Below, piece by piece: positions 1-59,108 of a DNA stretch of 59,108 nt (position 1 is the first letter of the stretch; each line of letters opens with the position of its first letter). The translations under genes were made by a program, and so were the position numbers. Below the pieces are notes generated by a model. It saw only the letters and a list, made by a program, of their open reading frames with translations, was not told where the DNA came from and did not search any database. Source of the stretch: a virus (lineage: Duplodnaviria > Caudoviricetes); the IMG/VR virus record IMGVR_UViG_3300039071_000013, positions 1 through 59,108 of that record. The stretch is one strand, 5' to 3'.

Positions 1-107
1 TTCCTTCATCCAGTTGTCAGTTTGTGAAATTATGCTGCGGTCAGCATCCCAAGGTGTTCGCAGCCGTTTCACCAGTTCTTCGTCACTCATGGCTCTCTCC
101 TTTGATC
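1..107. repeat. 107-bp direct repeat identical to 59002-59108 (circular overlap)
   Basis: Exact match by eye. It falls inside a coding region, so it is probably an assembly overlap rather than a physical terminal repeat. Confidence 0.95.
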
Positions 108-349
108 TCTGCGAGGGTGGCGAGGGCGATGTCGCGCATATCTTTGAATGCTTCTTCCACCTCATAGTCTTCGCCCCAGATCATTTGCTCATCGCGCTTA
201 GCAATGGCGAGCAGCCCAGCTTCCGCCTTCGCCAGCTTGTCAGTCAGAGCCTCGATGCGGGCGGCGGATTTGCGGCACCAATCGCAAGCCATTTCTTTGG
301 TCGCATGTACTGGATAGCCGCAAGCGCCACAGCATGTTTTGTCACTCAT
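83..349 (-). CDS. Mosaic coiled-coil accessory protein with N-terminal CxxC..CxxC
   Basis: MSDKTCCGACG..CDWC..ARIEALT..KLAKAE..ATLAEIKGESHE; AAGGAG RBS; coupled to neighbouring genes. Confidence 0.8.
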   Translation of the reverse strand: MSDKTCCGACGYPVHATKEMACDWCRKSAARIEALTDKLAKAEAGLLAIAKRDEQMIWGEDYEVEEAFKDMRDIALATLAEIKGESHE

Positions 350-689
350 GGCTCTCTCCTTTGATCAACGCGCTGTCAGCTTCTGCCAGTGTTTCTGCTA
401 AATCGCGAACAGGAATGCCGCGCAAAATTCTTTCTGGGATAGGGCGAATGCGGTTTAGTGCAGACCGAAGAGCATTCCGCTCCTTGGTCAGGGCTTCGAT
501 GCGGTCCTCATGCAGTTTCCGCTCGGCTTCCATTGCGTTGGCATAGCCCCGTTGCTCGGCAAGAGTTAACTCGGCGGTCAGGGCTTCGATGCGGTCGGCG
601 GCTTCTTCGCAGGTGTCGTCAATGTTATGCCAGCCACCCTGATCCTTGGCATAGCTTCGCAACCGCTTCACCAGTTCTTCGTCAGTCAT
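342..689 (-). CDS. Mosaic coiled-coil accessory protein (MTDEELVKRLR / AADRIEAL family)
   Basis: Shares modules with three neighbouring ORFs; AAGGAG RBS. Confidence 0.8.
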   Translation of the reverse strand: MTDEELVKRLRSYAKDQGGWHNIDDTCEEAADRIEALTAELTLAEQRGYANAMEAERKLHEDRIEALTKERNALRSALNRIRPIPERILRGIPVRDLAETLAEADSALIKGESHE

Positions 690-1131
690 TGATGTCTCCT
701 TTCAGTTCTGCGAGGACGGCTGGATGCACCCCCAAAATTTTCAACATCTCCACCGCCTTCGCCAGCTTGTCGTTAGCCCCGCTCAGGGCAACGTGCATCT
801 CGCTGTAGGTGTTGTTTGCGTCAGCCAGCTTGAAGGCATAGTCATCTCGCTCCTTCTCCAACTCCTCCGCATAAGCCTCGGCCTCCTTGGCGTCAGCACG
901 GGCGGCTTCGAGTTGCTCGGTCAGGGCGTCTGCCTCCTTCCGCCAATGCACAAACGACTTCCAATGCTCGTCCCGTTCGGCGGTTAGTTTTTCATTAGCC
1001 TCAGCAAGCCGATCAGAAACAGACGACTGCTCTTTGAGGGCTTGTTGAAGTTGCTCGATGCGGTCGGCTGCTTGTTTTGCATATGCACCAGCTTTCCAGC
1101 GCAGCGCCTTGCACAGTTCTTCGTCAGTCAT
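682..1131 (-). CDS. Mosaic coiled-coil accessory protein
   Basis: Start moved to MTDEELCK at 1131 (GGAGG RBS); AADRIEQL and KLAKAVE modules. Confidence 0.8.
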   Translation of the reverse strand: MTDEELCKALRWKAGAYAKQAADRIEQLQQALKEQSSVSDRLAEANEKLTAERDEHWKSFVHWRKEADALTEQLEAARADAKEAEAYAEELEKERDDYAFKLADANNTYSEMHVALSGANDKLAKAVEMLKILGVHPAVLAELKGDIND

Positions 1132-1333
1132 CTCGGCCTCCGCTGTTTGCTGCGTCATATGTCCAGAATTGCCAATCAGGCCCATCAAGGTGGTCGTGCT
1201 TCACGATCCTCGCCCGCATAACGACATGCCACCAAACCCATTTGCCATACCAGAGGCGCACAGGTCTCCATGCAAACCATCTATGAACAGGGCCGATTAC
1301 TTTCCCAAAGGCATAACAGTGTGGCCAAGTCAT
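1124..1333 (-). CDS. Trp-rich hypothetical protein
   Basis: HRWFAWRPVRLWYGKWVW; overlaps the start/stop of both neighbours. Confidence 0.7.
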   Translation of the reverse strand: MTWPHCYAFGKVIGPVHRWFAWRPVRLWYGKWVWWHVVMRARIVKHDHLDGPDWQFWTYDAANSGGRDD

Positions 1334-1746
1334 CCTCGTGGCCTCCGCTGCTTAGAGTCCTTCCAACCACACGTCCCGATCTGCACGATGCCGGGGAAGT
1401 CGTGGAAAGGAATTGCGTACCCTTCGTGATGGACCCACCCACCTCTTTCAAGGTGAGGTTCATACTCAAAAGCCCACACGTGTTCATCATCTTCTCGCGC
1501 CACCCACTCAACCCAATCAGGCAGCTTCTCCCATGCGATCACGTCTTGGGTCTTCTCCGGCAGGGGGAGGGTGCGGTAGATGCTTTCGTCACACCATTCG
1601 GGTAGGGTGTAGCACCACCCGCCAAGGTCTGCTGGGGCATAACGCTCAAACTCCCCACCCGCCTTCTCATGCTCATGCAGCGCAGCCTTTTCCTCGTCGG
1701 TCAGCAGGCCATACGGCACTCGGTTGTTGGTCATGTCTACGGTCAT
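1330..1746 (-). CDS. Hypothetical early protein
   Basis: 138-aa ORF with GAGGAG RBS. Confidence 0.8.
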   Translation of the reverse strand: MTVDMTNNRVPYGLLTDEEKAALHEHEKAGGEFERYAPADLGGWCYTLPEWCDESIYRTLPLPEKTQDVIAWEKLPDWVEWVAREDDEHVWAFEYEPHLERGGWVHHEGYAIPFHDFPGIVQIGTCGWKDSKQRRPRG

Positions 1747-1758
1747 TTGGTTTTCTCC

Positions 1759-2148
1759 TCAGAGTTTGATGTGTGACTGCACACGCTTCCTTTTGTGTGG
1801 TGATTGTGCAGTTGGTATGCCCATGCGATACACCTGATCCAGCACAAGACCATCCTTGATGGTGAGCACGTGGCCTGTGATCGTCACACTGTAGTTGTGG
1901 GCAGGGTCATACGTGGTGGTCAGCCACTTCTTGAGTGTGGGCTTGGGGCTGCGGTAGTGCATCTCTTCACGCACCCTCATGCCCAAGTGAGCAAAGGCAT
2001 CAAGCCTCTCCCACACACTCGTGAAGTCTCGTCTCTTGTGCAGGAGGATGAACACCCTCTCCGCATCTCGGTATGGGATGCCTGCCAGAGTGGCGACAGA
2101 GACAATGCCACAGTTGTCCATCCCGGCAGGCGTATCCTCAGGTATCAT
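1759..2148 (-). CDS. Hypothetical protein with possible papain-like Cys/His pair
   Basis: NCGIVSVA...GHVLTIKDG; GGAGG RBS. Confidence 0.65.
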   Translation of the reverse strand: MIPEDTPAGMDNCGIVSVATLAGIPYRDAERVFILLHKRRDFTSVWERLDAFAHLGMRVREEMHYRSPKPTLKKWLTTTYDPAHNYSVTITGHVLTIKDGLVLDQVYRMGIPTAQSPHKRKRVQSHIKL

Positions 2149-2273
2149 GCTCCCTCCAAACTTTTCCTGATCTCTGATAAGAGTTTCTTGAGTTCAGGAT
2201 TACTACGTTCAGTAGTCTTTGGCAAGAGTTTCTCACACATGTCCAGCAGTTTCAGTTCGAGTGCAGCTTTCAT
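2145..2273 (-). CDS. Small hypothetical protein (42 aa)
   Basis: Read manually (MKAALELKLL...); GGAG RBS; ATGA overlaps. Confidence 0.6.
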   Translation of the reverse strand: MKAALELKLLDMCEKLLPKTTERSNPELKKLLSEIRKSLEGA

Positions 2274-2452
2274 GTTCTCCATCCTTCTGCCAAAAACACT
2301 GAGGGTATCAGTGCTGACACGGTGTCACCCTCTGTGAAGTATACGGTCACACATGAACCAATCTTGTTGCCCCTATCACACAACACATTCACCCTATGCC
2401 AGTGATGAACAGGTTGCAGGGTTGATGGTGCGTTGATCCAGTATCTCTGCAT
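2270..2452 (-). CDS. Hypothetical protein
   Basis: Start placed at MQRYWINAPSTLQP within the ORF-track ORF. Confidence 0.6.
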   Translation of the reverse strand: MQRYWINAPSTLQPVHHWHRVNVLCDRGNKIGSCVTVYFTEGDTVSALIPSVFLAEGWRT

Positions 2453-2456
2453 ACTA

Positions 2457-2681
2457 CTACCCCGCAAAGTGGAAGAGAGCACGAGTGCCAGTATTGTGAC
2501 GCTCAAGGTAGAGGGAACGCTTTCCCCAGTGGATGCCCACCATGCAGCTATCCTTGGTGACAGACAGCGGGCGGGACTTGAACTTGCGCTTACGATACAG
2601 CCCCTTCTGGTTGAAGAAGTTGAAGCGGAAACCCTGAGTGCGATCATTCAGTGGTTTGGTTGCGGCGAGAATGATGAACAT
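2457..2681 (-). CDS. Hypothetical protein
   Basis: 74-aa ORF, AGGAG upstream. Confidence 0.65.
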   Translation of the reverse strand: MFIILAATKPLNDRTQGFRFNFFNQKGLYRKRKFKSRPLSVTKDSCMVGIHWGKRSLYLERHNTGTRALFHFAG

Positions 2682-2687
2682 GGTAGG

Positions 2688-2900
2688 TTACACTCCTGTG
2701 TTGTGGTGGTATGTATGAAATGAGATTTCCCAAACCTCTACCAAAGGGACGATTGCATCCTCTAATCCGTGCTTGTTCTTTTTGAAGTTTAGCATTTCTC
2801 TCACGGCATCTTTGGCAGACACATTGGGTGTGTTTCCGAGTTGCCTATTCAGTTCGTCCAAGTCAAAGGTGACTGTGAGCGTCACTGTTTGCAGGTCCAT
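2688..2900 (-). CDS. Hypothetical protein
   Basis: Start at MDLQTV with AGGAG RBS. Confidence 0.6.
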   Translation of the reverse strand: MDLQTVTLTVTFDLDELNRQLGNTPNVSAKDAVREMLNFKKNKHGLEDAIVPLVEVWEISFHTYHHNTGV

Positions 2901-2914
2901 GGTCACGCTCCTGT

Positions 2915-3505
2915 TCAGATGTTGTGGATACGCTTCCAGACTACCCAAGTGATAGCCTGCAGTTCATAAACCTTCAACCCAATACGCTTAGCAGCACGGT
3001 AGTAAGCAGCCTGCATCTTCTGATACTCAGCCTTACCCATGCCCGTCTCGTTGTCAGTCAGGGTCACACGCTTGCCCTTGGCGATGTTGTATGCGTGACC
3101 ATCAATGGTGCAGTTGTCGTGGCCCATGATGTTGCAGAAGAACGACACAATCTTCTGGCCGTTGAGGATACGCATGACTGCATCATCATCCTCTGGCATC
3201 TGTTCGATCACTGACCATGCCTTGTCACGCATTTTGCTGTAGGTGCAGGGCTTGCACACATCGACAGGATCACCACGCAGGAACACAGCGATCATGTTGC
3301 TGGCATCCATCACGTTGCGTTCCCACTTGTTGTTGGGCGAGAGTGCAGCAATGACACCCACCACAATACGCAGTGGCACATCATGCAGGTTGGCAATGGA
3401 CTGAGCCTGTGCCTTGGCATCAGCATACCACTTGGTGCCACGATCATGTTCCTGCAGGGTGGCTTGGCGATACACCCTGAGGATGTTGCGAACTTCGGTA
3501 GTCAT
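2915..3505 (-). CDS. Conserved phage protein, possibly HhH-GPD/DNA-glycosylase-like fold
   Basis: AALSPNNKWERN, TIDGHA and LQAITW motifs; AGGAG RBS. The fold is an inference. Confidence 0.65.
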   Translation of the reverse strand: MTTEVRNILRVYRQATLQEHDRGTKWYADAKAQAQSIANLHDVPLRIVVGVIAALSPNNKWERNVMDASNMIAVFLRGDPVDVCKPCTYSKMRDKAWSVIEQMPEDDDAVMRILNGQKIVSFFCNIMGHDNCTIDGHAYNIAKGKRVTLTDNETGMGKAEYQKMQAAYYRAAKRIGLKVYELQAITWVVWKRIHNI

Positions 3506-3524
3506 TGCGTCTCTCCTATTGTAT

Positions 3525-3541
3525 TATCGGACCGTCCGATA
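3525..3541. promoter_or_regulatory. Palindrome copy 1, TATCGGAC-C-GTCCGATA
   Basis: Perfect 8-bp arms just upstream of the RBS of 2915-3505. Confidence 0.7.
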
Positions 3542-3548
3542 TTAAGTG

Positions 3549-3770
3549 TCAGTGTTTGGCGTCTCTGTCAAGCTCTGTGCAGAGATCGAGGTCGAAGTCG
3601 TCCAGATCATAGAAGCCTGTGTTGATGAGCCTGCCTCCGGGGGTGGACATGTAGATGGGTGCTGTGTCCCCGTAGGTGGGATGTTCCCAGAGTTTGTAGC
3701 CCTCAATCTCCATGAACAGGTAGGGATCACGGGCAAGGAAACGATCCAGCTTAGATACTGTCTCACTCAT
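3549..3770 (-). CDS. Hypothetical protein
   Basis: MSETVSKLDRF...EHPTYGD. Confidence 0.65.
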   Translation of the reverse strand: MSETVSKLDRFLARDPYLFMEIEGYKLWEHPTYGDTAPIYMSTPGGRLINTGFYDLDDFDLDLCTELDRDAKH

Positions 3771-3945
3771 CCCACACCCCCAGACTTTCCAAGGTTTCCA
3801 AGTATGCCTTTTCTTCCAAGGCTTTGAAGTTGCCATAGGCATCTGGCATCATCCAGCTTCCACCCTGCATTACGATCCACATGATGATGAAGAAGTCTCT
3901 TGCGTCAGCCAACATGTTCTGTCCTTTCTTTCGATATGCCATCAA
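3763..3945 (-). CDS. Small hypothetical protein
   Basis: ORF in a tightly packed operon. Confidence 0.5.
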   Translation of the reverse strand: MMAYRKKGQNMLADARDFFIIMWIVMQGGSWMMPDAYGNFKALEEKAYLETLESLGVWDE

Positions 3946-4109
3946 TCACAAGATGAGTAGCGGGAAGAGTCAAGCACCCACACCTGACCAGAGGTATCAA
4001 ACCACACACGGTATGAGTAACCATATCCCGGTCCAAGCAAAGCCTGACAGCGTTGGCCTTCTTGTTCAGCCTCAACCTCAGTGTCGAAGTATTCTACAGA
4101 GCGGATCAT
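3942..4109 (-). CDS. Small hypothetical protein (55 aa)
   Basis: Read manually (MIRSVEYFDTE...SSCD); fills the gap with overlapping start/stop. Confidence 0.6.
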   Translation of the reverse strand: MIRSVEYFDTEVEAEQEGQRCQALLGPGYGYSYRVWFDTSGQVWVLDSSRYSSCD

Positions 4110-41006: not shown

Positions 41007-42913
41007 GTCAAGTCAACGATCTCACAAGAGCCAACACAGGCAAAGGTTTGAGTCCCTTTGGAAGTGTCTTCTTTCTCGTAATCACTCAGCTTAGTCCAAT
41101 CAATCTTCGGTGGCATGACAGCAAGTAGGTCTTCATACTCCCGTTGATTGATCTCCTGATAGGGTGCCTGTTGGTAGCTGTGGTCAGAGTGCGGCAAGAA
41201 AGACACACCAGATACTTCATCGAAGTACTTATAGACCCAAGCACCAACCTCCATCCACTCATTGTCACGAACAGTCACCGTGATAGAAGGCTTATGCTCA
41301 CACCAGTGACGCTGATAGACCAACCACAACTCCAACTGTTCGATAGCTGTCATGTCGTTACGGGTGATAGCACCTTCGGGAGACTTCTGTGGGAAGCTAA
41401 AGACTGTGGTAGTCTCAGGCTTAATCACACAAGGCTCACTAGGAATACCCTGATCCTTCATAAGCTGCGTCAGAGGGTCTTTGTTGTCACCCCTTACGGT
41501 GCGGATATAATACTGGCTGTGACGAGCATGAATACCAGAAGCGGAATCCACAAGCTGGCTAACAGTTCCGCTTGGTTTGACACAAGTAATGGCCGCACTA
41601 GCAGGAATACCAAGATGATTAGCCCACTCAGCGTTAGTAGCAACAGCGACATCCTTAAGACACTCCAAGACAGATTTCAGATCACGTTGAAGCTTATCAA
41701 CACCATTCAAGAATACGTTGTCCATGATGCCAGTCAACGACACACCCAACAGCCGCTCTTCCTCAGTGTTCTTCTGCCAAATCTTACGCAGATAGGGGAA
41801 GTGAGTGTACGTCGATTGGATAGTGCCAAGGATCGTAGCCAGCTTTACTTTCCGCTCCAAGTCCTCAAGTGTATCCGTAGCTCTGACCACGACTTCTGTG
41901 AGGTTACAGAACTGATACGGACGAAGGATAATTTCAGAGCACGGATTCGTACCAAAATCTTGGTTAGCATCACGACGACCATTCTTTCCAGCTTGTTTCT
42001 TAGATGCCTGACGAGAGAAGATACCACGCTCACCAGACTTGCTTTCCACCAGAGAGAGCCACTCACGCATGAAGGTTTCCATGTCAGGCTTCTCAGTGTA
42101 GGCCACAGAGTTGTTAGCCAAAGCACGTTGAGCATTACCTTCCCACCACATACCTGACTTAGCATGACGCATACGATCATCAGACAGGTTCGACAGAGAG
42201 ATCATTGCAGAGCGACGAACACCGCCAACCACAACAACTTCACCGATCTTACACATGATGTCGTGGCACTCAATCGAAGACAGCTTACGACCAGCAGCGC
42301 CCTTGAACTTCTCAATCGTGTACTGGAACAATTCTACCAGAGGGGCAGGACCAGATGCACGACCACCAAAGGTCTTGAGTTTAGCGCCAGCAGGACGAAC
42401 TTTAGACACATCCCACTTAGGGATTTCCCCTGCATAGAGCATAGCAATCAGCTTACGCAGAGCCTTAGCCCAACCCTCTTTGCTATCGTGGACAACGATC
42501 ACATCTTCCGAAGCAAACAGTTGCTCAGGAACCTCAGGCAGCTTGCTGATGTATTGACGCTCCACAGAGAAGCCAACACCAGTGCCACACAGGAGGATGA
42601 ACATAGCCTCGTCAAAGGATTTGGGGTCGTCCACAGGCAGGTAGGAACAGTTGTATCCAGCCGTGTTGTCACGCTCCAAGGCAGGGCCAGCAGTCATCAC
42701 AGCCCGCATCGAAGGCATAATCTCAAGACCAAGAATAGCCTCTTCGATTTCGTCAAGGATGATCTCGTCACGGGTTTTAGGTACAACAACATTAGTCATG
42801 TAGCGAGAGACAGTCTCACCCCAACCCTCACGCCGCTTATACTCTTCGAGCCAACGAGCATAGCGTGATGTGTGAATGAAGGACTGATAGTCAGTAGGCA
42901 GGTGGTTACTCAT
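41003..42913 (-). CDS. nrdJ: Class II (B12-dependent) ribonucleotide reductase
   Basis: NCS, GTNPCSEI, TCVKPSGT, C-terminal CxxxC; no beta-subunit gene seen. Confidence 0.9.
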   Translation of the reverse strand: MSNHLPTDYQSFIHTSRYARWLEEYKRREGWGETVSRYMTNVVVPKTRDEIILDEIEEAILGLEIMPSMRAVMTAGPALERDNTAGYNCSYLPVDDPKSFDEAMFILLCGTGVGFSVERQYISKLPEVPEQLFASEDVIVVHDSKEGWAKALRKLIAMLYAGEIPKWDVSKVRPAGAKLKTFGGRASGPAPLVELFQYTIEKFKGAAGRKLSSIECHDIMCKIGEVVVVGGVRRSAMISLSNLSDDRMRHAKSGMWWEGNAQRALANNSVAYTEKPDMETFMREWLSLVESKSGERGIFSRQASKKQAGKNGRRDANQDFGTNPCSEIILRPYQFCNLTEVVVRATDTLEDLERKVKLATILGTIQSTYTHFPYLRKIWQKNTEEERLLGVSLTGIMDNVFLNGVDKLQRDLKSVLECLKDVAVATNAEWANHLGIPASAAITCVKPSGTVSQLVDSASGIHARHSQYYIRTVRGDNKDPLTQLMKDQGIPSEPCVIKPETTTVFSFPQKSPEGAITRNDMTAIEQLELWLVYQRHWCEHKPSITVTVRDNEWMEVGAWVYKYFDEVSGVSFLPHSDHSYQQAPYQEINQREYEDLLAVMPPKIDWTKLSDYEKEDTSKGTQTFACVGSCEIVDLT

Positions 42914-46987: not shown

Positions 46988-47557
46988 TCAGTGGATAAGT
47001 GAGTAGTTGATACCAAACTGCACGTCGATGTCCAGCTTGATGTTGAGTTTCAGCTTCTCGTTGACCTTGTTGATTGCCCAACGAAGAACCGCTTCGTGTT
47101 CCTTCTCTTCACCCTTCTTGACCCTGTTGATGGATTCGTCGTGGAACTGTCCAACAATGTTTGGTCGTTTGGTCAGGTAGTGTGCAACCCACTGATCGAA
47201 GCAGTATGCACCTGTGCCTTGGTTGAGGGTTGAGAAGATGTCTTTCTCGTAGCGCAGCGTGTACCAGAAACCATTCACAGGGTTCTTGACCCACATCTGC
47301 CCGTTCACAGTCTTGACCTCCTGATCCTTGGCGAACTGTCTCACAGCCCAGTTCAGTTGCCAAAAACTCTCTAACAGACTTGCAGCTTCTGCCTCTGTCA
47401 TACCAGAAGACCTAGCTAGTTTTGCCTTACCTACTCCGTAGGTGGCGCTATAAGTCACTACCTTGGCCTTCTTACGTTTTGCCGTAAGGCTTTTGAAGAG
47501 CTTCTCCTGTTGGTCCTTTGGAAGGTTCTTCATTTCCTCTAGCGTTAGATTCGACAT
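46988..47557 (-). CDS. DNA polymerase A, C-terminal fragment
   Basis: Motif B R..AKVVTYSATYG, LNQGTG, motif C FHDE; own ATG with AGGAG upstream. Confidence 0.88.
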   Translation of the reverse strand: MSNLTLEEMKNLPKDQQEKLFKSLTAKRKKAKVVTYSATYGVGKAKLARSSGMTEAEAASLLESFWQLNWAVRQFAKDQEVKTVNGQMWVKNPVNGFWYTLRYEKDIFSTLNQGTGAYCFDQWVAHYLTKRPNIVGQFHDESINRVKKGEEKEHEAVLRWAINKVNEKLKLNIKLDIDVQFGINYSLIH

Positions 47558-47975
47558 AGCTTGCAGCTCTCCTGAGTAGCTCTGGGTTATCCTGAAAGAG
47601 ACCTAGACCCCTATTACAATTGTGACACAAGAGTCCTCTAGGTTTACCTGTAACGTGATCGTGGTCTAGGTTCATACCTGTGGTATGGTCTTCCCTCATC
47701 TTAAACCCCACAGTGTTACAAATAGCACACTTATAGTCTTGCTCTTGCAACTTTTCTTTTACCCATTTCAAATCCACCCCATAGGTTCTCTTGTAGTGTT
47801 TGTCAGCATACACTTCTCTCCTACAGTCGTCCTTGCAGTAATGGTGTGAAGGACCGATAGGTAGAAAAGATGTCTTGCACCATCTGCAAGCTTTCTCCTT
47901 AAAGTTTTTCTGGGGGTATTTATTTGGATTGGCAGAGAATGCCTTTTCCATGGGGTTGGGATTTTTAATGACCAT
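47472..47975 (-). mobile_element. Endonuclease VII-type HNH homing endonuclease gene inside polA
   Basis: CAIC...DHDHVTGKPRGLLCHNCNRGLG; overlaps both pol fragments. Confidence 0.88.
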
Positions 47976-49326
47976 GCTTTTTGTACCACGAGTAGAATTG
48001 ATATTCGTCCTCAGTGATACTACCAGCAATAACCAACAACTTCAAGTGGGGATCGAAGTCATCAGTAGCCATCTCGTCAACATACTCAGGATCATAAGGG
48101 TAGATGAAGTGGCGCTTGGTTGTGTCCTCCAAAGAAGTCATGTCAGCACCGCATAGTATAGTGCCTTCGTCAGCAATGAGTGAACCCCTAATCTCTTTGC
48201 CCCAAGGCTTATCAACACCGGGGAGGTTGACCAGAGGCTTCTTGTGCTTGAAGCGTAGTGTGTTGGTCAGGCCAGCAATCTCAGCCTTCACATAACCACC
48301 CACCTCAGATTCAAGCATACCCTCGAAAATAGACTTGCGGTGCTGGATCACGGTCAACCCATCAAGCAATCCCACACCGGGGTTCTTCTCAATCAGGAGT
48401 TTGACTGAGGGTGCAAGCTCTCCATCCTTGCGGACCTGAGGGATCATACGCTCAGTGCCATCCTCGTTCTTCTTGTAGTCGTGAGTACAAGGTTCCCAGC
48501 CCATAGAAAAGAGCCAGTCCTTGACCTGATCGGACGAGTTGGGGTTGGGCTGTTCGACACTCTTAACGACAAGCACAGGGTCTTCGTGGAAGAGGGGTAG
48601 GTCGTGCTCTTCCAGAAGTTTGAACCAGTCGATAGCAGCCTTGCTGTGTGTGCCATCCTTCTTAGTCATCTTCTCTGGCTTGGTCTTCTCAGCATACTTA
48701 GTCACAGGTGGCATGACCTGACGCAGTTCCTCGACCTTCTCTTCCTGAGCCTTCTCCAAGGTTGCCAGAGATTGCTCTACAAGCTCCTTGTTGATGCGCC
48801 AGCCAGCCTGTTCAGCCATAGCAGCAGACTTCATCTTGAAGGTCAGGTACTGGAAGAACTTGTCCATAGACAGCTTGTCGTCCTTGTAGACCATCTTGAA
48901 ACGCTTGATGAGGTCTTTCCAGAGGAGCCAGTTGATCTTCACATCCTCTTCACAGCGATGCTTGTACTGCTCGTAGGTCAGACCTTCCCAGTCAGTGATC
49001 TCAGGCTTAGGCACCCCGAAGTCTTCCCCGAAGGACTCAAGCCCGTGGAGTTGACGTTGAGGATACATGACCCAAGACATAGGCAGCGTGTCGTACAGCT
49101 TGGCCTTGATACTGATGCCAAGGATTTTCTCCAAGACAAGAATATCAAAGCGGGCACCGTTGTGGATAACCAAAGTTTTCGCAGATTGTAAAAAGGCCCT
49201 CATGTCGGGGTAAGTAGACAAGGATTTTGGTTCTAACCTATCTAGGGGGGAAAAGGAAATCACATGAACCTTTGTCGCCCCCTCAAGGAGTCCGTCAGTC
49301 TCGCAATCCATTACATATGCCGACAC
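47965..49326 (-). CDS. DNA polymerase A, N-terminal fragment (3'-5' exonuclease through motif A)
   Basis: DCETDG, HNGARFD, TNTLRF.H, NLPGV, GADMTSLED, DPH. Confidence 0.9.
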   Translation of the reverse strand: MSAYVMDCETDGLLEGATKVHVISFSPLDRLEPKSLSTYPDMRAFLQSAKTLVIHNGARFDILVLEKILGISIKAKLYDTLPMSWVMYPQRQLHGLESFGEDFGVPKPEITDWEGLTYEQYKHRCEEDVKINWLLWKDLIKRFKMVYKDDKLSMDKFFQYLTFKMKSAAMAEQAGWRINKELVEQSLATLEKAQEEKVEELRQVMPPVTKYAEKTKPEKMTKKDGTHSKAAIDWFKLLEEHDLPLFHEDPVLVVKSVEQPNPNSSDQVKDWLFSMGWEPCTHDYKKNEDGTERMIPQVRKDGELAPSVKLLIEKNPGVGLLDGLTVIQHRKSIFEGMLESEVGGYVKAEIAGLTNTLRFKHKKPLVNLPGVDKPWGKEIRGSLIADEGTILCGADMTSLEDTTKRHFIYPYDPEYVDEMATDDFDPHLKLLVIAGSITEDEYQFYSWYKKHGH

Positions 49327-55421: not shown

Positions 55422-56201
55422 TTAAACCCAATCATCCAGTTCCTCTCTGGTATCAAAGTCGTACATCTCCTCAGAGAGAATGTCAGGGATTTCCTTGGGT
55501 TCAATCTCCTCAAGAACCTTGTACTCGCACACTCGCATCTTCGAGAAGTTGTAGTCGTAGGGAACAGCAACCACATTGGCAGGGTTCACCTCAACCACCA
55601 GAGTGCGATTGTTTGCGCCAGTGGCATAGCCCTTGAGGTACTCGTCAGCACAGACATGAAGGCCAGACGAACAGGTGTGCTGGGGATCATCATCGACCTT
55701 GCTGCGATCCATCTTCACCACAGTGCCAATGCTGTTGTCCATCTTGCCAGTGTGCAGGTCTTTCCAGTTAGAACCAACACGCTTGAAGGCGATGAAGTTA
55801 CCTTCTGGGGTGATCGGGGCATTGAAGTGCTCAAGGAACCCGTAGAGGCAGTTGCGAGAGCGGAACGAGGGGTTGTCCATCAGCTTCTCAAGGAACTTGA
55901 TCCAAGGGGTAGCATCGAAGCCATCGTCCAGCAGGTTCAGCAGCTTGTTGGTCAGAGCGTTGTGAAGCTCTTCGCCCTTGTAGTAGACCGTGCCGTTGAT
56001 AACCTCAACAGACTTGCCAGCAGACTGACGGATAGTCTCTTCACGATCAGACAGGGTGAGGATGGTGGCAGCGTCATGCTCAGGCCCACGAAGGTGCTCA
56101 CGCAGCTTCTCGAAGTTCTTGTTGCCAGAGAGGACGGTACGCATCTTGCCGCTAACAAATACGGTGACGCTTTCGGCAGAGAGGGTGTAGGGGACACGCA
56201 T
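55422..56201 (-). CDS. rIIB: rIIB-like protein
   Basis: LMDNPS, ITPEGNFIAFK, CSSGLHV, VAVPYDY..KMRVC; paired with rIIA-like gene. Confidence 0.85.
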   Translation of the reverse strand: MRVPYTLSAESVTVFVSGKMRTVLSGNKNFEKLREHLRGPEHDAATILTLSDREETIRQSAGKSVEVINGTVYYKGEELHNALTNKLLNLLDDGFDATPWIKFLEKLMDNPSFRSRNCLYGFLEHFNAPITPEGNFIAFKRVGSNWKDLHTGKMDNSIGTVVKMDRSKVDDDPQHTCSSGLHVCADEYLKGYATGANNRTLVVEVNPANVVAVPYDYNFSKMRVCEYKVLEEIEPKEIPDILSEEMYDFDTREELDDWV

Positions 56202-56205
56202 TGGG

Positions 56206-58146
56206 TTACTCCTTTGCTGCGTTGTCGATCAGTTGGACGTAACGGACAAACTCTTTGATGTTGTTGTTGCCACTGCATAGTGCAAGCAGGGGGTACTTGT
56301 CAAGAAGGTTCTTGTACTGAACCTCAACACTCTGGTTGGAGAACATGGGCAAGCAGTAATGACGAAGAAGATCAGACCACCGGGAAGAGTTAAGCCCAAG
56401 GTGGAGGTTAGGTCGAACCTCATTCACTTTGTCGGCAAACTCTCCCACAACACCACCAGCCTCAGACAGATTTCGGAAGTTGTTGAAGGGATGTATGTTG
56501 TACACGTTGCCAAAGGTCTTCCTGACAGTGGTTGCCTCTTCCTGCACCAACTTCTCAAGGGCAGGCTCGAAGCTGATCCAGTTGGACTGAGCCTCGAACT
56601 TCTTCCAGAGGGTCTTAGGGACGAACACTACATCTTTCCCGAACTTGTCCTTGGATACCATGTGTGCGCTGCGGATGTGGTACGGGATGTCATTGTTTGA
56701 CATGGGGAAATAGTACCCACCAGCCTTGAAGGTTGCATCATCCATGTCGTGCTTGTTGAAACCATTGTTGTAGAGAGACACCATGATCTTTGCACGAGGA
56801 CCAGACTGCTTGGGGCCATCGTCCTGCAAGTCCTTCACGTATAGCACAGGGAAGTCAAGCTCTGCAATCAGGGTGTCAACCTCAGCCTTCTGTTCTTTGT
56901 CTGTCAGATCAGCCCTGACCCAGACGTAGTGCTTGTAACTGTCAATAGCACTACAGATACGGGTTGCAGCACGAGCACAGCCCTTCTTGTCAGAGGTATC
57001 CTGAATGAAGATGGTGTGGTCCGCATCCACACTCAGGTCTTTGTCGATACCAAACCCCGCAGTCTTCTGGCGGTAGCCCTTGTAACCACAGTGCAGAGAA
57101 ACCTTCTGATACTTCGCAAGGTTCCACACCTTCGGGATTTGCCGACCCTGCCACTTGAACTCACCACTACGAATGAACCTACGCAGTCTGGGTGCCAGCT
57201 TGGCTGCAAGGAACAGCTTGGGCTGTGCGTCAACCTCAGCCTGTAGTGCATCAAACAGTTGCTGTTCAACTACCTCAGTCTTGGCCCTGATGCTGGCAGC
57301 AGTAGGATCATTGGGACCGAAAGACAGGGCTTCACGTGATGCAGTGACTTCCAGATCACCAATGTCAAACTTGTAGACAATGCTGCGACCATACCACGAG
57401 CTTTTCGGGAGATACTCGTAGGGAATAGGGTAGAGGACACAGCCCATCTGAGCAAAGGCACCAGACATCGACTCGTGTTCGTACAGGTAGTAGTCCTTGC
57501 CCTCGTACAGCTTCTTGAGGGGGCTGAAAGACTTCTCCTTGGAGTTGGTGACAACAGGAGGAACATCAAAGCCCACAGAGATAACATTGGCTGCGGTCTG
57601 GAACTGTTGGATGTCCTGACGCTTCACAGGGAAGGATACTTCAAGACCATCTGGCTCGTTGGTGGGCTGAGGCTCAGCAAGGACATGGAGTTGCGGCGAT
57701 CCGTCAGGACCGAGTTGAACCGCATAGTAGCTGACCATGCCCTTGTGACGGGAAACGACAGAGAAGGTATCAGTGTAGGACATGGGGGACATACGCCCAA
57801 CGCCCCACTTACCTACAGCCTTGTTGGTATTCTCCTTGGTGGAGTGACCCAGCACAGTGTAGAAACCTTCCATGTCATCGTGGGCAATCCCCGGCCCGAA
57901 GTCACGGCAGGTGAAGGTGGGTGTGATGGCAGTAGGGAAAGTCACCTCGAATGGGACAGCCTCCTTGCCCACCATAGCATGTGCATCAAAGGCATTGGAC
58001 CAGATTTCTCTCGTGATGGACTTGGGCTTGTCTGAGTAGAGGCCAGAGATCACCATGTGGAACATCTTGCCTGATGCTTGGATGGTGAAGTCTTTGGTCG
58101 TCTGGCTGTTGGTCTCTACGACACGCAGGTTGCTATTGCTCTTCAT
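56206..58146 (-). CDS. rIIA: rIIA-like protein (GHKL ATPase N-terminus)
   Basis: LYSDK...REIWSNAFDAH, RDFGPGI, GKWGVG, TASREAL. Confidence 0.85.
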   Translation of the reverse strand: MKSNSNLRVVETNSQTTKDFTIQASGKMFHMVISGLYSDKPKSITREIWSNAFDAHAMVGKEAVPFEVTFPTAITPTFTCRDFGPGIAHDDMEGFYTVLGHSTKENTNKAVGKWGVGRMSPMSYTDTFSVVSRHKGMVSYYAVQLGPDGSPQLHVLAEPQPTNEPDGLEVSFPVKRQDIQQFQTAANVISVGFDVPPVVTNSKEKSFSPLKKLYEGKDYYLYEHESMSGAFAQMGCVLYPIPYEYLPKSSWYGRSIVYKFDIGDLEVTASREALSFGPNDPTAASIRAKTEVVEQQLFDALQAEVDAQPKLFLAAKLAPRLRRFIRSGEFKWQGRQIPKVWNLAKYQKVSLHCGYKGYRQKTAGFGIDKDLSVDADHTIFIQDTSDKKGCARAATRICSAIDSYKHYVWVRADLTDKEQKAEVDTLIAELDFPVLYVKDLQDDGPKQSGPRAKIMVSLYNNGFNKHDMDDATFKAGGYYFPMSNNDIPYHIRSAHMVSKDKFGKDVVFVPKTLWKKFEAQSNWISFEPALEKLVQEEATTVRKTFGNVYNIHPFNNFRNLSEAGGVVGEFADKVNEVRPNLHLGLNSSRWSDLLRHYCLPMFSNQSVEVQYKNLLDKYPLLALCSGNNNIKEFVRYVQLIDNAAKE

Positions 58147-58315
58147 GGTTGACTATCTCCCATAGTCTGATGGTTGCTGTTACAGCGGCGTCAAGTTCTT
58201 CCTTGTTCGAGGAAAGCATAACACAATCAACCAGTTCCTCGAACTTCAAGTCTGAGAAGTAGGCATTACACACCGTAGACAGTATGTAGTCCCAATCGTC
58301 TGGTTCATAACCCAT
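58133..58315 (-). CDS. Hypothetical protein
   Basis: Start at MGYEPDD, downstream of the tRNAs. Confidence 0.55.
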   Translation of the reverse strand: MGYEPDDWDYILSTVCNAYFSDLKFEELVDCVMLSSNKEELDAAVTATIRLWEIVNHEEQ

Positions 58316-58332
58316 TGAAAACCCTGTGGAAA

Positions 58333-58408
58333 TGGTGCTGGTGGAGAGGCTTGAACTCCCGACCTGATGCTTACAAGGCAACTACTCTACCAACTGAGTT
58401 ACACCAGC
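58333..58408 (-). tRNA. tRNA-Thr(UGU)
   Basis: GCTGGTG acceptor stem, anticodon loop CTTGTAA, GTTCAA T-loop, encoded CCA. Confidence 0.93.
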
Positions 58409-58409
58409 A

Positions 58410-58486
58410 TGGCCTACCCGGAGCGACTCGAACGCCCGACCCAGTGCTTAGAAGGCACTTGCTCTATCCAACTGAGCTACGGGTAG
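58410..58486 (-). tRNA. tRNA-Arg(UCU)
   Basis: CTACCCG acceptor stem, anticodon loop CTTCTAA, GTTCGA T-loop, encoded CCA. Confidence 0.93.
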
Positions 58487-58495
58487 TATCTCTAT

Positions 58496-58525
58496 ACACT
58501 ACACCCTATTGGTTAACAGTGTCAA
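58496..58525 (-). promoter_or_regulatory. Putative tRNA promoter
   Basis: TTGACA-N18-TAGTGT, about 10 bp before tRNA-Arg. Confidence 0.5.
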
Positions 58526-59091: not shown

Positions 59092-59108
59092 GGCTCTCTC
59101 CTTTGATC
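59002..59108. repeat. Second copy of the 107-bp overlap
   Basis: Identical to 1-107. Confidence 0.95.

What the first reader, a model, noticed from the sequence alone, without database searches (positions are those of the whole stretch)
68..1351. Array of mosaic paralogous genes built from short conserved DNA joints (continues at 58522-59108)
Seen: four coupled ORFs (682-1131, 342-689, 83-349, 58522-59091) alternate unrelated segments with near-identical joints. J1, GTCACTCATGGCTCTCTCCTTTGATC (82-107, 341-366), on the coding strand holds the C-terminus IKGESHE, the stop, an RBS and the next start. J2, CAGTTCTTCGTCA(C/G)TCAT, encodes M(S/T)DEEL (ends at 90, 689, 1131). J3, GTCAGGGCTTCGATGCGGTC, encodes DRIEALT (487-506, 577-596, 58967-58986; variants near 243, 1055, 58783). 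J4, CCGCCTTCGCCAGCTTG, encodes KLAKA (223-239, 753-769, 58695-58711). CAGCGGAGGCC (minus strand) precedes two further starts. The joints keep identity at synonymous positions while the spacers share nothing. Inference: a recombinational domain-shuffling system in which crossovers at any joint keep frame and translational coupling, producing variable host-interaction proteins. It loosely recalls the modular Ead/Ea22-type early genes of lambdoid phages.
Basis: partly seen in the sequence, partly recalled or inferred. Interest (0 to 1): 0.8.

Follow-up and report, generated by a model that had tools for sequence, protein, structure and literature searches.

The report
Phage gene array shuffled at short joints
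Four neighbouring early genes of an uncultured freshwater-type phage are patchworks of protein segments stitched together at short DNA stretches that stay nearly identical, and related phages carry the same segments in other combinations, showing that recombination at these stitches keeps reshuffling the proteins.

Summary
The window is a complete phage record whose first and last 107 bp are the same DNA, so the four minus-strand genes (1131-682, 689-342, 349-83, 59091-58522) form one translationally coupled array. Exact 15-26 bp repeats (J1-J4) occur only inside this array, where shuffles give 0.09 copies or fewer. Sixty-seven IMG/VR loci and Logan contigs from other studies carry the same modules at 92-100% identity in other orders. 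Their flanking genes are only about 74-87% identical. Segment ends cluster at the joints, and four-gamete combinations occur at J3 and J2. One relative differs from gene B by an exact 90-bp J3-to-J3 deletion. Joint codons are nearly fixed at synonymous sites, far beyond codon bias, and some modules show strong purifying selection.

The best reading is a mosaic family of helical early proteins diversified by homologous exchange at short, codon-aligned joints. J1/J2 also carries the stop, the ribosome-binding site and the next start. I found no dedicated recombination enzyme. Protein function is unknown. Leads are fusions of one module to Lar anti-restriction domains and an Ea22-like architecture, but Ead/Ea22 membership was tested and not met. 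This is a new variant of known phage mosaicism.

The parts
682..1131 (-). Gene A (149 aa from the ATG at 1131). It starts with MTDEEL (J2) and contains a J3 variant, the EQLEAARADAKEAEAYAEELE module and J4 (KLAKA). It ends ...AELKGDIND and overlaps the start of gene B by 8 nt (ATGACTGA).
   Evidence: its modules at 850-930 and 931-987 occur in other contexts in relatives
342..689 (-). Gene B (115 aa). Layout: J2 start, N module, J3, middle module, J3, C module, ending IKGESHE inside J1.
   Evidence: L002 lacks exactly the 90 bp between the two J3 copies
83..349 (-). Gene C (88 aa). It has a four-cysteine N-terminus (CxxC...CxxC), a J3 variant (ARIEALT), J4 (KLAKA) and a C module ending IKGESHE inside J1.
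   Evidence: its C module is 97-100% identical in 9 loci, where it follows unrelated N-termini in L012, L014 and L025
58522..59091 (-). Gene D (189 aa), last gene of the array. It has a J2 start, two J3 copies, J4, and the C module LRKLHHAVCGETGF...YPWPALDEAD. It is predicted to be mostly long helices.
341..366 (-). J1, the gene-boundary joint (second copy at 82-107, which equals 59083-59108). On the coding strand it reads GATCAAAGGAGAGAGCCATGAGTGAC. It holds the C-terminal IKGESHE, the stop codon, the Shine-Dalgarno AAGGAG 6 nt before the ATG, and the next start.
   Evidence: 26-bp exact repeat; reading; the related C-terminal joint TLAEIEGE has 13 unrelated left and 11 unrelated right flanks
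672..689 (-). J2, the start-of-gene joint encoding M(T/S)DEEL (other copies at 1114-1131 and at 73-90, which equals 59074-59091).
   Evidence: 37 left and 33 right flank clusters, 54 combinations, 2 four-gamete squares; the GAA-GAA codons are used in 39 and 40 of 41 contexts against a background of 0.49
576..599 (-). J3, an internal joint encoding (A)ADRIEALT. Other copies are at 486-506, 58967-58989 and 58783-58798; variants are at 1055-1073 and 243-258.
   Evidence: 30 left and 23 right flank clusters, 48 combinations, 3 four-gamete squares; the identical 21-mer occurs in 23 of 47 distinct contexts
748..771 (-). J4, an internal joint encoding (E)AKLAKA(VEA). Other copies are at 223-241 and 58690-58711.
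   Evidence: the identical 18-mer occurs in 31 of 35 contexts, with Ala = GCG in 33 and 32 of 35 against a background of 0.24; 15 unrelated left and 19 unrelated right flanks; no four-gamete square
848..987 (-). Ends of high-identity segments cluster at 848-864, 906-927 and 984.
1..107 (.). Terminal overlap, identical to 59002-59108. It closes the array across the record's ends and stops exactly at the end of J1.
   Evidence: the record is classed as having direct terminal repeats, completeness estimate 100; a source-run contig spans 58962-59108
1124..1746 (-). Two conserved, non-mosaic upstream genes of the same operon (138 aa at 1746-1330, 69 aa at 1333-1124). They serve as the ordinary-divergence comparator.
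   Evidence: PHROGs of unknown function; the 138-aa gene is 70-84% identical in 21 loci
58333..58486 (-). tRNA-Arg(TCT) and tRNA-Thr(TGT), directly downstream of gene D.
55422..58146 (-). rIIA-like gene (58146-56206) and rIIB-like gene (56201-55422). They give the downstream context and a second flank comparator, 84-85% identical over the gene in L004, L026 and L027 (85-87% over the wider 56000-58400 flank).

Best explanation
The array is a tandem family of small, mostly alpha-helical early phage proteins. Their genes are mosaics of interchangeable coding modules. Modules are exchanged, duplicated and deleted by homologous recombination at short (about 15-35 bp) codon-aligned stretches of near-identical DNA. 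These are J2 (start, MTDEEL), J3 (AADRIEALT), J4 (EAKLAKAVEA) and the gene-end joint (TLAEI[K/E]GE, of which J1 is a version), plus further joints in gene A.

Every copy of a joint is read in the same frame, and in the gene D model the internal joints lie inside long predicted helices. A crossover therefore gives an in-frame product, which I infer is probably foldable. The gene-end joint also carries the stop codon, the ribosome-binding site and the next start, so whole genes can be swapped or lost without breaking translational coupling. Repeated exchange through the joints homogenises them (gene conversion), which explains why synonymous sites in them are nearly fixed. In J1/J2, ribosome-binding and start-region constraints add to this.

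Shown here: the repeats, their confinement to the array, alternative module combinations in relatives, four-gamete configurations at J3 and J2, an exact joint-to-joint indel, module identity far above flank identity, and purifying selection on one module.

Inferred: exchange happens both within a genome (unequal crossing-over between tandem paralogues) and between co-infecting relatives. It uses general recombination functions rather than a dedicated enzyme. The diversity is maintained because the proteins meet variable host targets; anti-defence or host take-over is my best guess for function, at about 35%. The confidence given applies to the recombination core, not to the function.
For: 1. 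Repeats far above chance and confined to the array.
2. Mosaic matches in relatives. Of 67 IMG/VR loci, many match only residues 62-115 (94-100%), 1-40 (95-98%), 1-72 (96%) or 40-79 (70-85%) of gene B. Of 323 homologues of gene D, many are 90-98% identical over only about 30% of it.
3. Modules are 92-100% identical, including at third codon positions, in contigs whose flanking genes are about 74-76% identical at third positions. In L012 the 138-aa gene scores 83/81/74 at codon positions 1/2/3, while the gene C module scores 100/100/100.
4. The rest cluster at three further sites.
5. Flank-cluster test: J3 has 30 left and 23 right clusters, 48 combinations and 3 four-gamete squares. J2 has 37 and 33 clusters, 54 combinations and 2 squares.
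6. An unbiased scan of all loci for 14-mers with at least 4 unrelated flanks on both sides gives 124 such 14-mers. The top four classes are J4, J3, J2 and the gene-end joint.
7. L002 equals gene B minus exactly the 90 bp between the two J3 copies. L004 and L009 share the 3' module behind unrelated 5' modules. L003 switches to a gene-A module after the second J3.
8. Synonymous fixation in the joints. In J3, Arg is CGC in 45 of 47 contexts (background 0.34) and Glu is GAA in 42 of 47 (0.49). In J4, Ala is GCG in 33 and 32 of 35 (0.24).
9. The same arrangements recur in contigs from different metagenomes: L015 = L016 = L017, L009 = L010, L011 = L012, L019-L021. Logan k=31 contigs of other studies join 975 to 570 (X3, side 69) and 1054 to 586 (X8, side 51), and end at 506, 224, 856 and 927.
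10. Purifying selection: the gene B middle module in L030-L037 is 100/100/47-59% identical at codon positions 1/2/3.
11. The gene D model (pLDDT 77) has helices at 18-72 and 98-144 that contain J3 and J4.
12. Function leads: the array sits in an operon with rIIA/rIIB. Gene D's C module is fused to Lar restriction-alleviation domains in 3 of 74 aligned homologues (E 4e-12 to 3e-10).
Against: - J4 gave no four-gamete square.
- The loci were collected by similarity to gene B, so module sharing with this window is favoured by the sampling. 'Distinct contexts' are not phylogenetically independent.
- In the probable source run every short-k contig stops at a joint, and none bridges one with 31 nt on both sides. 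The exact module order of this genome therefore rests on the original assembly. Partial outside support: 4 loci cover 82-506 at 90% identity or more (99.3% in the locus whose row was visible), and L003 covers 478-690.
- No annealing or strand-exchange protein was recognised in the phage. ERF, RecT and AAA_24 each gave 0 matches. The ORF next to the Cas4-domain exonuclease has no family.
- Part of the synonymous conservation in J1/J2 can be explained by ribosome-binding and start-region constraints without any recombination.
- Function is unsupported by any family match. No Pfam hit reaches its cut-off for genes A-D. Fold and atlas searches were uninformative.
Confidence: 0.75

Rival explanations
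1. A dedicated diversification system: the joints are recognition sites for a specific enzyme that cuts or recombines at them. Candidates are the tyrosine integrase at 55051-53927, one of the endonuclease VII/HNH-type nucleases, or a Chi-like hotspot for the host's RecBCD/AddAB. It would work like a shufflon or integron, or like homing-nuclease-stimulated exchange.
For: - Synonymous sites in four different joints are nearly fixed, which could also reflect selection on a DNA signal.
- A tyrosine integrase lies about 3.5 kb from the array on the same strand.
- The phage carries two endonuclease VII/HNH-type genes and a resolvase-like endonuclease.
- In relatives, endonuclease-looking ORFs sit in or beside the array: L018 4451-5005, which ends in the family's C-terminal motif, and L004 3393-3875. 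Those domain names are my reading of the sequences and were not tested with a family search.
Against: - All joint copies are direct repeats on one strand, so inversion shuffling is excluded.
- There are at least four unrelated joint sequences. By my reading (not a computed test), none has the inverted-repeat core typical of tyrosine-recombinase sites.
- Crossover ends spread over several bases (570/575/576/586 and 848-864), as in homologous exchange, not at one phosphodiester bond.
- Many relatives keep arrays in other contexts without an integrase-sized ORF in the listed part of the fetched loci (the output was cut and no family search was run on those ORFs).
- No reverse transcriptase is present.
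Confidence: 0.1
2. An ordinary diverged paralogue family. The short identical stretches are conserved peptide motifs and translation signals kept by purifying selection and codon preference, and the joints play no special part in recombination.
For: - All joints encode conserved peptides.
- J1/J2 overlaps the Shine-Dalgarno sequence and the start codon.
- The proteins align over their whole length at 24-37% identity.
- J4 shows no four-gamete square.
Against: - Codon choice in the joints departs strongly from the family's own usage, for example Ala = GCG in 33 of 35 contexts against a background of 0.24. Other copies of the gene B middle module vary freely at third positions (47-59% identity there).
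- Four-gamete squares occur at J3 and J2.
- There is an exact joint-to-joint 90-bp indel.
- Modules are 97-100% identical inside backgrounds that are 74-85% identical.
Confidence: 0.07
3. Assembly artefact: the window's array, and the variants in relatives, are chimeric paths through a repeat-rich assembly graph of mixed phage populations.
For: - The record's ends fall in the array, and the terminal overlap stops exactly at J1.
- In the probable source run the region is fragmented into contigs that break at each joint: 1-107, 78-122, 93-370, 341-606 and 577-1800. Their depths differ (about 12 for 93-606 against 21-25 beside it).
Against: - The joints (26 bp or less) are shorter than the k of 31 used for the Logan contigs, so by my knowledge of de Bruijn assembly they should not cause collapse in a single genome. 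The branching indicates co-occurring variants instead.
- Identical arrangements recur in contigs from different metagenomes.
- Four loci cover 82-506 across J4 and J1 at 90% identity or more, 99.3% in the locus whose row was visible.
- Products are always in frame with intact coupling, which random chimeras through other repeats would not guarantee.
Confidence: 0.03

Closest known systems
Ea22 (Ead/Ea22-like) proteins of lambdoid phages. Sources: passages read in PMC7093339 and PMC10834534; lambda record NC_001416.
   Same: - Both are early, non-essential phage genes.
- Ea22 has a short N-terminal segment, a central coiled coil and unrelated C-terminal domains, and its authors describe it as mosaic.
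[quoted passage not shown] Genes B and C here end ...IKGESHE, and relatives end ...IEGE...
- Lambda Ea22 ends I-K-G-E-stop, encoded ATCAAAGGAGAG, the same 12 nt as in J1.
   Different: - There is no sequence relationship. PF13935 is absent from genes A-D at E <= 1 and from the fused relatives at E <= 10. BLASTP of lambda Ea22 against gene D gives E = 39.
- Here there is a tandem array of several paralogues with at least four internal nucleotide-conserved joints. Ea22 is a single gene whose described variation is mainly a swapped C-terminal domain.
- In lambda no coupled gene follows the KGE codons.
PeSL regulatory cassettes mediating modular shuffling in T4-type phages (Arbiol et al. 2010, PMC2839356, abstract read; Comeau et al. 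2014, PMC4122927, search listing only).
   Same: - Short conserved sequences recur between small non-essential genes of hyperplastic regions.
- Recombination between them causes insertion, deletion and replacement of genes.
- Direct repeats could also excise circles.
   Different: - PeSLs are intergenic promoter-plus-terminator cassettes. The joints here are coding and codon-aligned, mostly inside genes, and carry no promoter-like site.
- They shuffle parts of proteins, not only whole genes.
- A PeSL-like promoter-leader cassette does occur in the relatives but not in this window.
gp38/gp37 tail-fibre adhesins of T-even phages: conserved glycine-rich motifs separating hypervariable segments (Trojet et al. 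2011, PMC3157838, passages read; Tetart et al. 1998, seen only in that paper's reference list).
   Same: [quoted passage not shown]
   Different: Those are virion receptor-binding proteins with a glycine-rich core. The proteins here are small helical early proteins in a multi-gene array, and one joint also spans the gene boundary with its translation signals.
HsdS specificity subunits of Type I restriction systems: variable target-recognition domains between conserved helical regions. This comparison rests on my own knowledge; PMC6158711 and PMC3874165 were seen in a search listing only.
   Same: Conserved helical (coiled-coil) spacers serve as in-frame crossover points that recombine variable domains.
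   Different: Those are host defence proteins with two fixed positions for variable domains. There is no sequence relationship, and no comparison was run here.

Membership tests
Ead/Ea22-like (Pfam PF13935 / IPR025153) | Significant match to the family model | tested here: not met
   hmmscan of genes A-D at E <= 1 lists no PF13935. Four fused relatives at E <= 10 list none either.
Ead/Ea22-like (Pfam PF13935 / IPR025153) | Pairwise similarity to lambda Ea22 | tested here: not met
   BLASTP of lambda Ea22 against gene D: best E = 39. Only gene D was compared.
Ead/Ea22-like (Pfam PF13935 / IPR025153) | Architecture of a short N-terminal segment, coiled coil and variable C-terminal domain, with a terminal K/RGE | tested here: met
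   The gene D model has long helices at 18-72 and 98-144 and a small C-terminal helical domain. Genes B and C end IKGESHE. The Ea22 features come from passages read. This is a resemblance, not homology.
Ead/Ea22-like (Pfam PF13935 / IPR025153) | Pro-lysogenic effect on phage development | not testable with these tools
   This needs a cultured phage and host.
PeSL mobile regulatory cassettes (T4-type phages) | Intergenic sigma-70-like early promoter followed by a stem-loop terminator | tested here: not met
   The scan of 1-4000 found 3 promoter-like sites, all at 3499-3552 and none in the array. No minus-strand terminator-like site lies in the array. The joints lie inside coding sequence.
Shufflon / invertible-segment systems (Rci, Hin/Gin/Cin type) | Inverted copies of the crossover site flanking invertible segments | tested here: not met
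   All joint copies in the array lie on one strand. The only minus-strand match is a 2-mismatch hit at 42702-42716, far from the array.
Shufflon / invertible-segment systems (Rci, Hin/Gin/Cin type) | Cognate site-specific recombinase encoded beside the segments | tested here: inconclusive
   A tyrosine integrase is encoded at 55051-53927, about 3.5 kb away. Relatives keep arrays in contexts without an integrase-sized ORF in the listed part of the fetched loci (the output was cut and no family search was run there).
Diversity-generating retroelement | Reverse transcriptase in the genome | tested here: not met
   PF00078 gave 0 matches in the complete record.
Diversity-generating retroelement | Template/variable repeat pair differing at adenines only | tested here: not met
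   Variants differ by whole-module replacement or by joint-to-joint indels, not by point changes at adenines.
Lar restriction-alleviation protein (Pfam PF14354) | Match to the Lar zinc-ribbon model | tested here: not met
   No PF14354 hit for genes A-D, including the four-cysteine N-terminus of gene C. The domain is present in 3 of 74 aligned homologues that share gene D's C module.
Mosaic phage genes formed by recombination at short conserved sequences (general kind) | The same segments occur in different combinations in related genomes, with breakpoints at conserved stretches | tested here: met

The most novel reading that the evidence does not exclude
The joints are not just by-products of exchange. 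They are selected recombination signals of a phage-borne combinatorial cassette locus. In this reading a standing pool of interchangeable helical and globular modules circulates among diverged phages, possibly as excised joint-to-joint mini-circles. It is reassorted in frame to generate new early counter-defence proteins, a viral analogue of antigenic-variation cassettes. On this view the terminal K/RGE of Ea22-type proteins would be the footprint of the same gene-end joint.
Probability: 0.18. Interest if true: 0.85.

Novelty: new variant of a known kind. Interest (0 to 1): 0.6.

Why it matters
Phage mosaicism is usually described at the level of whole genes or large domains. Here exchange operates on 20-50-residue pieces of small early proteins, through several nucleotide-conserved in-frame joints. 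Modules pass between phages whose neighbouring genes have diverged by 15-25%. That gives a concrete, testable case of how phages can explore protein sequence space quickly without losing frame, fold or operon translation.

The finding marks a large uncharacterised protein family. Parts of the 1-1800 stretch (genes A-C and the two conserved upstream genes) were found in public runs of 14 studies, counting the probable source study, and gene D has 323 homologues. This family is a candidate set of fast-evolving host-interaction or anti-defence factors.

It also offers a simple explanation for one feature here: the conserved ...KGE/...EGE protein ends are the in-frame reading of the next gene's ribosome-binding site. 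Whether that applies to Ea22's unexplained terminal motif is an open lead.

Tried and rejected
- Family searches gave nothing for genes A-D. Pfam returned only sub-threshold hits to helical or coiled-coil-type families, the best being TMP_3 at 21.5 bits against a cut-off of 41. PHROGs gave tape-measure noise and hits of unknown function.
- Fold search of the gene D model against BFVD found 1 match at E <= 0.001, to an unnamed protein that is 49% identical and therefore a family member. The rest had E above 1.
- The ESM Atlas gave only 'hypothetical protein' clusters at scores of 0.90 or less. Of 10 structural rows, 9 had TM below 0.5 and one reached 0.58 by query; no family was named.
- I recalled that the 'TPGPW...ANA.FIAAA' N-termini fused to gene D's C module are Ead/Ea22-like, but no Pfam hit supports this. 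PHROGs returned only families of unknown function, phrog_722 and phrog_1273. Their precomputed label PF27050 is not in my Pfam copy, so I cannot name it.
- DNA search of 1-1800 against GenBank phages found one record, MW202675.1. It matched only the J2/J1 joint, and its genes there are annotated as hypothetical.
- The scan of bacterial and archaeal genomes found one weak locus on a 2.7-kb MAG contig. There is therefore no host assignment, and I name none.
- ERF, RecT and AAA_24 (the Sak4 type) gave 0 matches each. Rad52 and RecA/UvsX models were not searched.
- No-cover bins and small word shares and one search are not used as evidence of absence or of habitat.
- The lower depth of the source-run contigs 93-370 and 341-606 (about 12 against 21-25) may mean that only part of that population carries this arrangement. 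Contig depths are too crude to claim it.
- Complex prediction was not used, because I make no binding claim. The second structure job, the search of protein representatives and the listing of cluster members were also not used.
- Paper supplements were closed and not consulted. Supplementary Fig. S9 of PMC10834534 (the Ea22 block alignment) may bear on how Ea22 mosaic boundaries compare with the joints here.
- Five literature searches returned no description of this family or of multi-joint intragenic shuffling in phage early genes. That is the whole basis for saying I found none in print.

Full report
**What is there**

The window is a complete virus record of 59,108 bp. Its first 107 bases are identical to its last 107. 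IMG/VR classes it as having direct terminal repeats, with a completeness estimate of 100. Read as a circle, four minus-strand ORFs form one uninterrupted array: gene A 1131-682 (149 aa), gene B 689-342 (115 aa), gene C 349-83 (88 aa) and gene D 59091-58522 (189 aa).

Each start overlaps the previous stop by 8 nt (ATGAsTGA). A Shine-Dalgarno sequence lies inside the last codons of the upstream gene.

Upstream on the same strand are two conserved small genes (138 aa and 69 aa; PHROGs of unknown function). Downstream are tRNA-Arg and tRNA-Thr, a small ORF, and then rIIA- and rIIB-like genes and a tyrosine integrase. The only promoter-like sites in 1-4000 lie at 3499-3552, so the array sits inside a longer leftward operon.

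The rest of that strand encodes ribonucleotide reductase, a Cas4-domain exonuclease, a split family-A DNA polymerase, primase/helicase, thymidylate synthase, MazG-like and endonuclease genes. The nearest GenBank relatives of the rIIA-like protein are only 32-36% identical.

**The observation**

- **J1:** 26 bp, at 82-107 and 341-366.
- **J3:** 20-23 bp, at 486-506, 576-599 and 58967-58989, with a 16-bp copy at 58783-58798 and variants at 1055-1073 and 243-258.
- **J4:** 17-22 bp, at 223-241, 748-771 and 58690-58711.
- **J2:** 18 bp, at 73-90, 672-689 and 1114-1131.

The cores occur 3-5 times in 59 kb, where dinucleotide-preserving shuffles give a mean of 0.09 copies or fewer. All exact copies are inside the array.

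Corrections:
- The copies at 73-107 are the same DNA as 59074-59108.
- The 11-mer CAGCGGAGGCC seen twice is about what chance gives (my arithmetic: about 0.7 expected in 2.4 kb).

**What relatives show**

A pattern scan of IMG/VR with gene B returned 67 loci. Their matches are partial in a telling way: residues 62-115 at 94-100% identity, residues 1-40 at 95-98%, residues 1-72 at 96%, or residues 40-79 at 70-85%, each in different contigs.

At DNA level the syntenic flanks are moderately diverged. The rIIA side is 85-87% identical in L004, L026 and L027. The 138-aa gene is 70-84% identical in 21 loci. Array segments recur at 92-100% identity, in other orders and other genes.

By codon position, flanks are about 74-76% identical at third positions in the same contigs, while many modules are 92-100% identical there. 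In L012 the 138-aa gene scores 83/81/74 at positions 1/2/3, and the gene C C-terminal module scores 100/100/100. That pattern means recent transfer of modules between lineages that are otherwise well separated.

Other copies of the gene B middle module (L030-L037) are 100/100/47-59 at positions 1/2/3. The peptide is therefore under strong purifying selection, and these are working protein segments.

Concrete cases:
- L002 is gene B minus exactly the 90 bp between its two J3 copies.
- L004, L009, L012 and L013 put four unrelated N modules in front of the same or nearly the same C module.
- L003 follows gene B through the second J3 and continues with a gene-A module.
- L012, L014 and L025 attach gene C's C module, after KLAKA or a close variant (KLSKA in L025), to unrelated N-terminal parts.

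In the loci I listed, arrays range from one family gene to about five to seven; this is my count from a listing whose output was cut.

Gene D behaves the same way. Of its 323 homologues, many are 90-98% identical over about 30% of its length.

**Are the joints the crossover points?**

With stringent scoring, 83 segments of at least 90% identity and at least 40 bp (49 unique intervals) map to the array. Most of the rest pile up at 848-864, 906-927 and 984.

I clustered the 45 nt on each side of every joint copy.

| Joint | Left clusters | Right clusters | Combinations | Four-gamete squares |
|---|---|---|---|---|
| J3 | 30 | 23 | 48 | 3 |
| J2 | 37 | 33 | 54 | 2 |
| J4 | 35 | 32 | 42 | 0 |

I also scanned all fetched loci, flanking genes included, for 14-mers flanked on both sides by at least four unrelated sequences. 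This gave 124 such words. The four top classes are J4 (15 unrelated left and 19 unrelated right flanks), J3 (16 and 12), J2 (14 and 11) and the gene-end joint TLAEIEGE (13 and 11). Among the listed classes I recognised none from the conserved flanking genes; that is my reading of the printed words, which I did not map back to genes.

**Nucleotide-level conservation**

I tallied codons in the family's own ORFs across contexts that differ in their 30-nt flanks.

| Joint | Residue | Codon | Contexts | Background frequency |
|---|---|---|---|---|
| J3 | Arg | CGC | 45 of 47 | 0.34 |
| J3 | Glu | GAA | 42 of 47 | 0.49 |
| J4 | Ala (position 3) | GCG | 33 of 35 | 0.24 |
| J4 | Ala (position 5) | GCG | 32 of 35 | 0.24 |
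| J4 | Ala (position 0) | GCC | 35 of 35 | 0.44 |
| J2 | Glu-Glu | GAA GAA | 39 and 40 of 41 | 0.49 |

The gene-end joint exists in two nucleotide versions, found in 17 and 7 of 30 contexts. Codon bias cannot produce this pattern.

The simplest cause is repeated exchange through the joints, which copies them from genome to genome. For J1/J2 there is a second, non-exclusive cause that the sequence shows directly: ...ATC AAA GGA GAG... is both the peptide I-K-G-E and the Shine-Dalgarno AAGGAG, 6 nt before the next ATG.

**Not an assembly artefact, with one caveat**

Identical arrangements recur in contigs from different metagenomes (L015/L016/L017, L009/L010, L011/L012, L019-L021).

Logan contigs (k = 31, longer than any joint) from three other studies carry single modules ending at 224, 506, 856 and 927. 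They also join 975 to 570 (X3) and 1054 to 586 (X8). Parts of the stretch were found in runs of 14 studies, counting the probable source study.

The caveat concerns the probable source run. There the region is split into contigs that stop at each joint (58962-59108, 78-122, 93-370, 341-606, 577-1800), and none bridges a joint. The graph therefore branches there, presumably because variants co-occur. The window's exact order rests on the original assembly. It has outside support for 82-506 (four loci at 90% identity or more) and for 478-690 (L003).

**The proteins**

No Pfam family reaches its cut-off for genes A-D, and PHROGs give noise.

The gene D model (AlphaFold2 with 74 sequences; mean pLDDT 77, pTM 0.40) has helices at 3-11, 18-72, 85-94 and 98-144, plus a small helical C-terminal domain. 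J3 and J4 lie inside the long helices. Fold and atlas searches add nothing.

The C module of gene D is the most conserved part of its homologues, with nearly invariant positions at L136 to L177. In 3 of 74 aligned homologues it follows a Lar restriction-alleviation domain (E 4e-12 to 3e-10). In others it follows N-termini that I recalled as Ea22-like, but no family match supports that.

**Mechanism, and how sure**

*Shown:* the repeats, their in-frame use, alternative combinations, incompatible combinations at two joints, an exact joint-to-joint indel, young modules in old backgrounds, and selection on one module.

*Inferred, about 0.75 for the core:* homologous exchange at short codon-aligned identities, both between tandem paralogues (indels, changes in copy number) and between co-infecting relatives (module import). 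The joints are kept uniform by that same traffic.

Crossover ends are spread over several bases. All joints are direct repeats. There are at least four unrelated joint sequences. No reverse transcriptase, ERF, RecT or Sak4-type protein was found. I therefore see no dedicated enzyme (rival, 0.1). A Cas4-domain exonuclease, a resolvase-like endonuclease and two endonuclease VII/HNH-type genes are present, and host RecA is a possible actor.

Function is the weakest part. My best guess is early host-interaction or counter-defence proteins, at about 35%. It rests on the position in an rIIA/rIIB operon, the Lar fusions, rapid turnover combined with purifying selection, and the analogy with Ea22.

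**Comparison with what is known**

- **Ea22 of lambdoid phages.** This is the closest in kind. It is an early gene with a short N-terminal segment, a coiled coil and unrelated C-terminal domains. Its authors describe it as mosaic, and it ends in an R/KGE motif 'of unknown significance' (passages read). Lambda Ea22 ends with the same 12 nt as J1, but no coupled gene follows. Membership was tested and not met.
- **PeSL cassettes of T4-type phages** (abstract). They share the logic of short repeated sequences driving shuffling in regions of small non-essential genes, but they are intergenic promoter-terminator units.
- **gp38 adhesins** (passages). They share intragenic exchange at conserved motifs, but they are virion proteins.
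- **Type I HsdS subunits.** These are a further analogue, from my own knowledge.

New here are the combination of a multi-gene array, several in-frame nucleotide-conserved joints inside helices, a gene-end joint that carries the translation signals, and the movement of 20-50-residue modules between diverged phages. I found no description of this in five literature searches.

**Limits**

- The loci were gathered by similarity to gene B.
- Counts of 'distinct contexts' are not independent events.
- No long reads were available.
- Paper supplements were closed.
- The host is unknown.

Noticed in passing
L009:1704-1841 and nine further distinct contexts (L010, L014, L015, L022, L038, L041, L043, L054, L066); absent from the window: Relatives carry a conserved cassette of about 80 bp: a promoter-like TTGCA...TATGGT, the leader ACGAACTAGCAAACAAGG, and a start codon. 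It precedes unrelated genes (7 unrelated left and 6 unrelated right flanks; contexts). It resembles the PeSL idea of a mobile regulatory cassette. The window has no match with up to 3 mismatches.
   Followed up: partly
window 46988-49326 (-): The family-A DNA polymerase is split into two ORFs (49326-47965 and 47557-46988). An endonuclease VII/HNH-type ORF (48029-47472) lies between and overlaps them, as if a homing-type nuclease had been inserted. A second endonuclease VII-type gene lies at 49756-49295.
   Followed up: partly
L018:4451-5005 and L004:3393-3875: In two relatives, ORFs that look to me like HNH/AP2-type homing endonucleases sit in or next to the array. The L018 ORF ends with the family's own C-terminal motif ...ATLAEVEGEKG, as if inserted in frame into an array gene. 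The domain names are my reading of the sequences; no family search was run on them.
   Followed up: no
L069 (lambda NC_001416) 548-562, minus strand: Lambda Ea22 ends I-K-G-E-stop, encoded ATCAAAGGAGAG, the same 12 nt as in J1 of the window. No plausible coupled ORF follows it. The published 'R/KGE motif of unknown significance' may be a relic of a ribosome-binding gene-end joint. With only four codons, the identity could also be chance.
   Followed up: partly
window 93-606: In the probable source run, the two short contigs covering 93-370 and 341-606 have mean depths of about 12, against 21-25 for the contigs on either side. This may mean that only part of that phage population carries genes B and C in this form. 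Contig depths are too crude to claim it.
   Followed up: no
window 107 / 59108: The 107-bp terminal overlap ends exactly at the last base of J1. I suggest the assembler stopped where the repeated joint makes the graph branch. The overlap may then reflect circular closure rather than physical terminal repeats.
   Followed up: partly
window 83-349 (-), residues 6-26 of gene C: Gene C replaces the usual MTDEELVKRLR start with a four-cysteine segment (CCGAC...CDWC) that looks like a small zinc ribbon. It has no Lar or other Pfam match. The same module precedes different C-terminal modules in L004, L012 and the window.
   Followed up: partly
L001 (MW202675.1) 3001-3465: A GenBank record of a 61-kb uncultured myovirus shares only the joints with the window: J2/J1 at 89%, J3 at 94% and J4 at 94%. 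Nothing else in window 56000-4000 matches the fetched 6-kb stretch, and the 1-1800 query matched the whole record only at the J2/J1 joint. Its genes there are annotated as hypothetical. The family therefore reaches phages that are not otherwise recognisably related at DNA level.
   Followed up: partly
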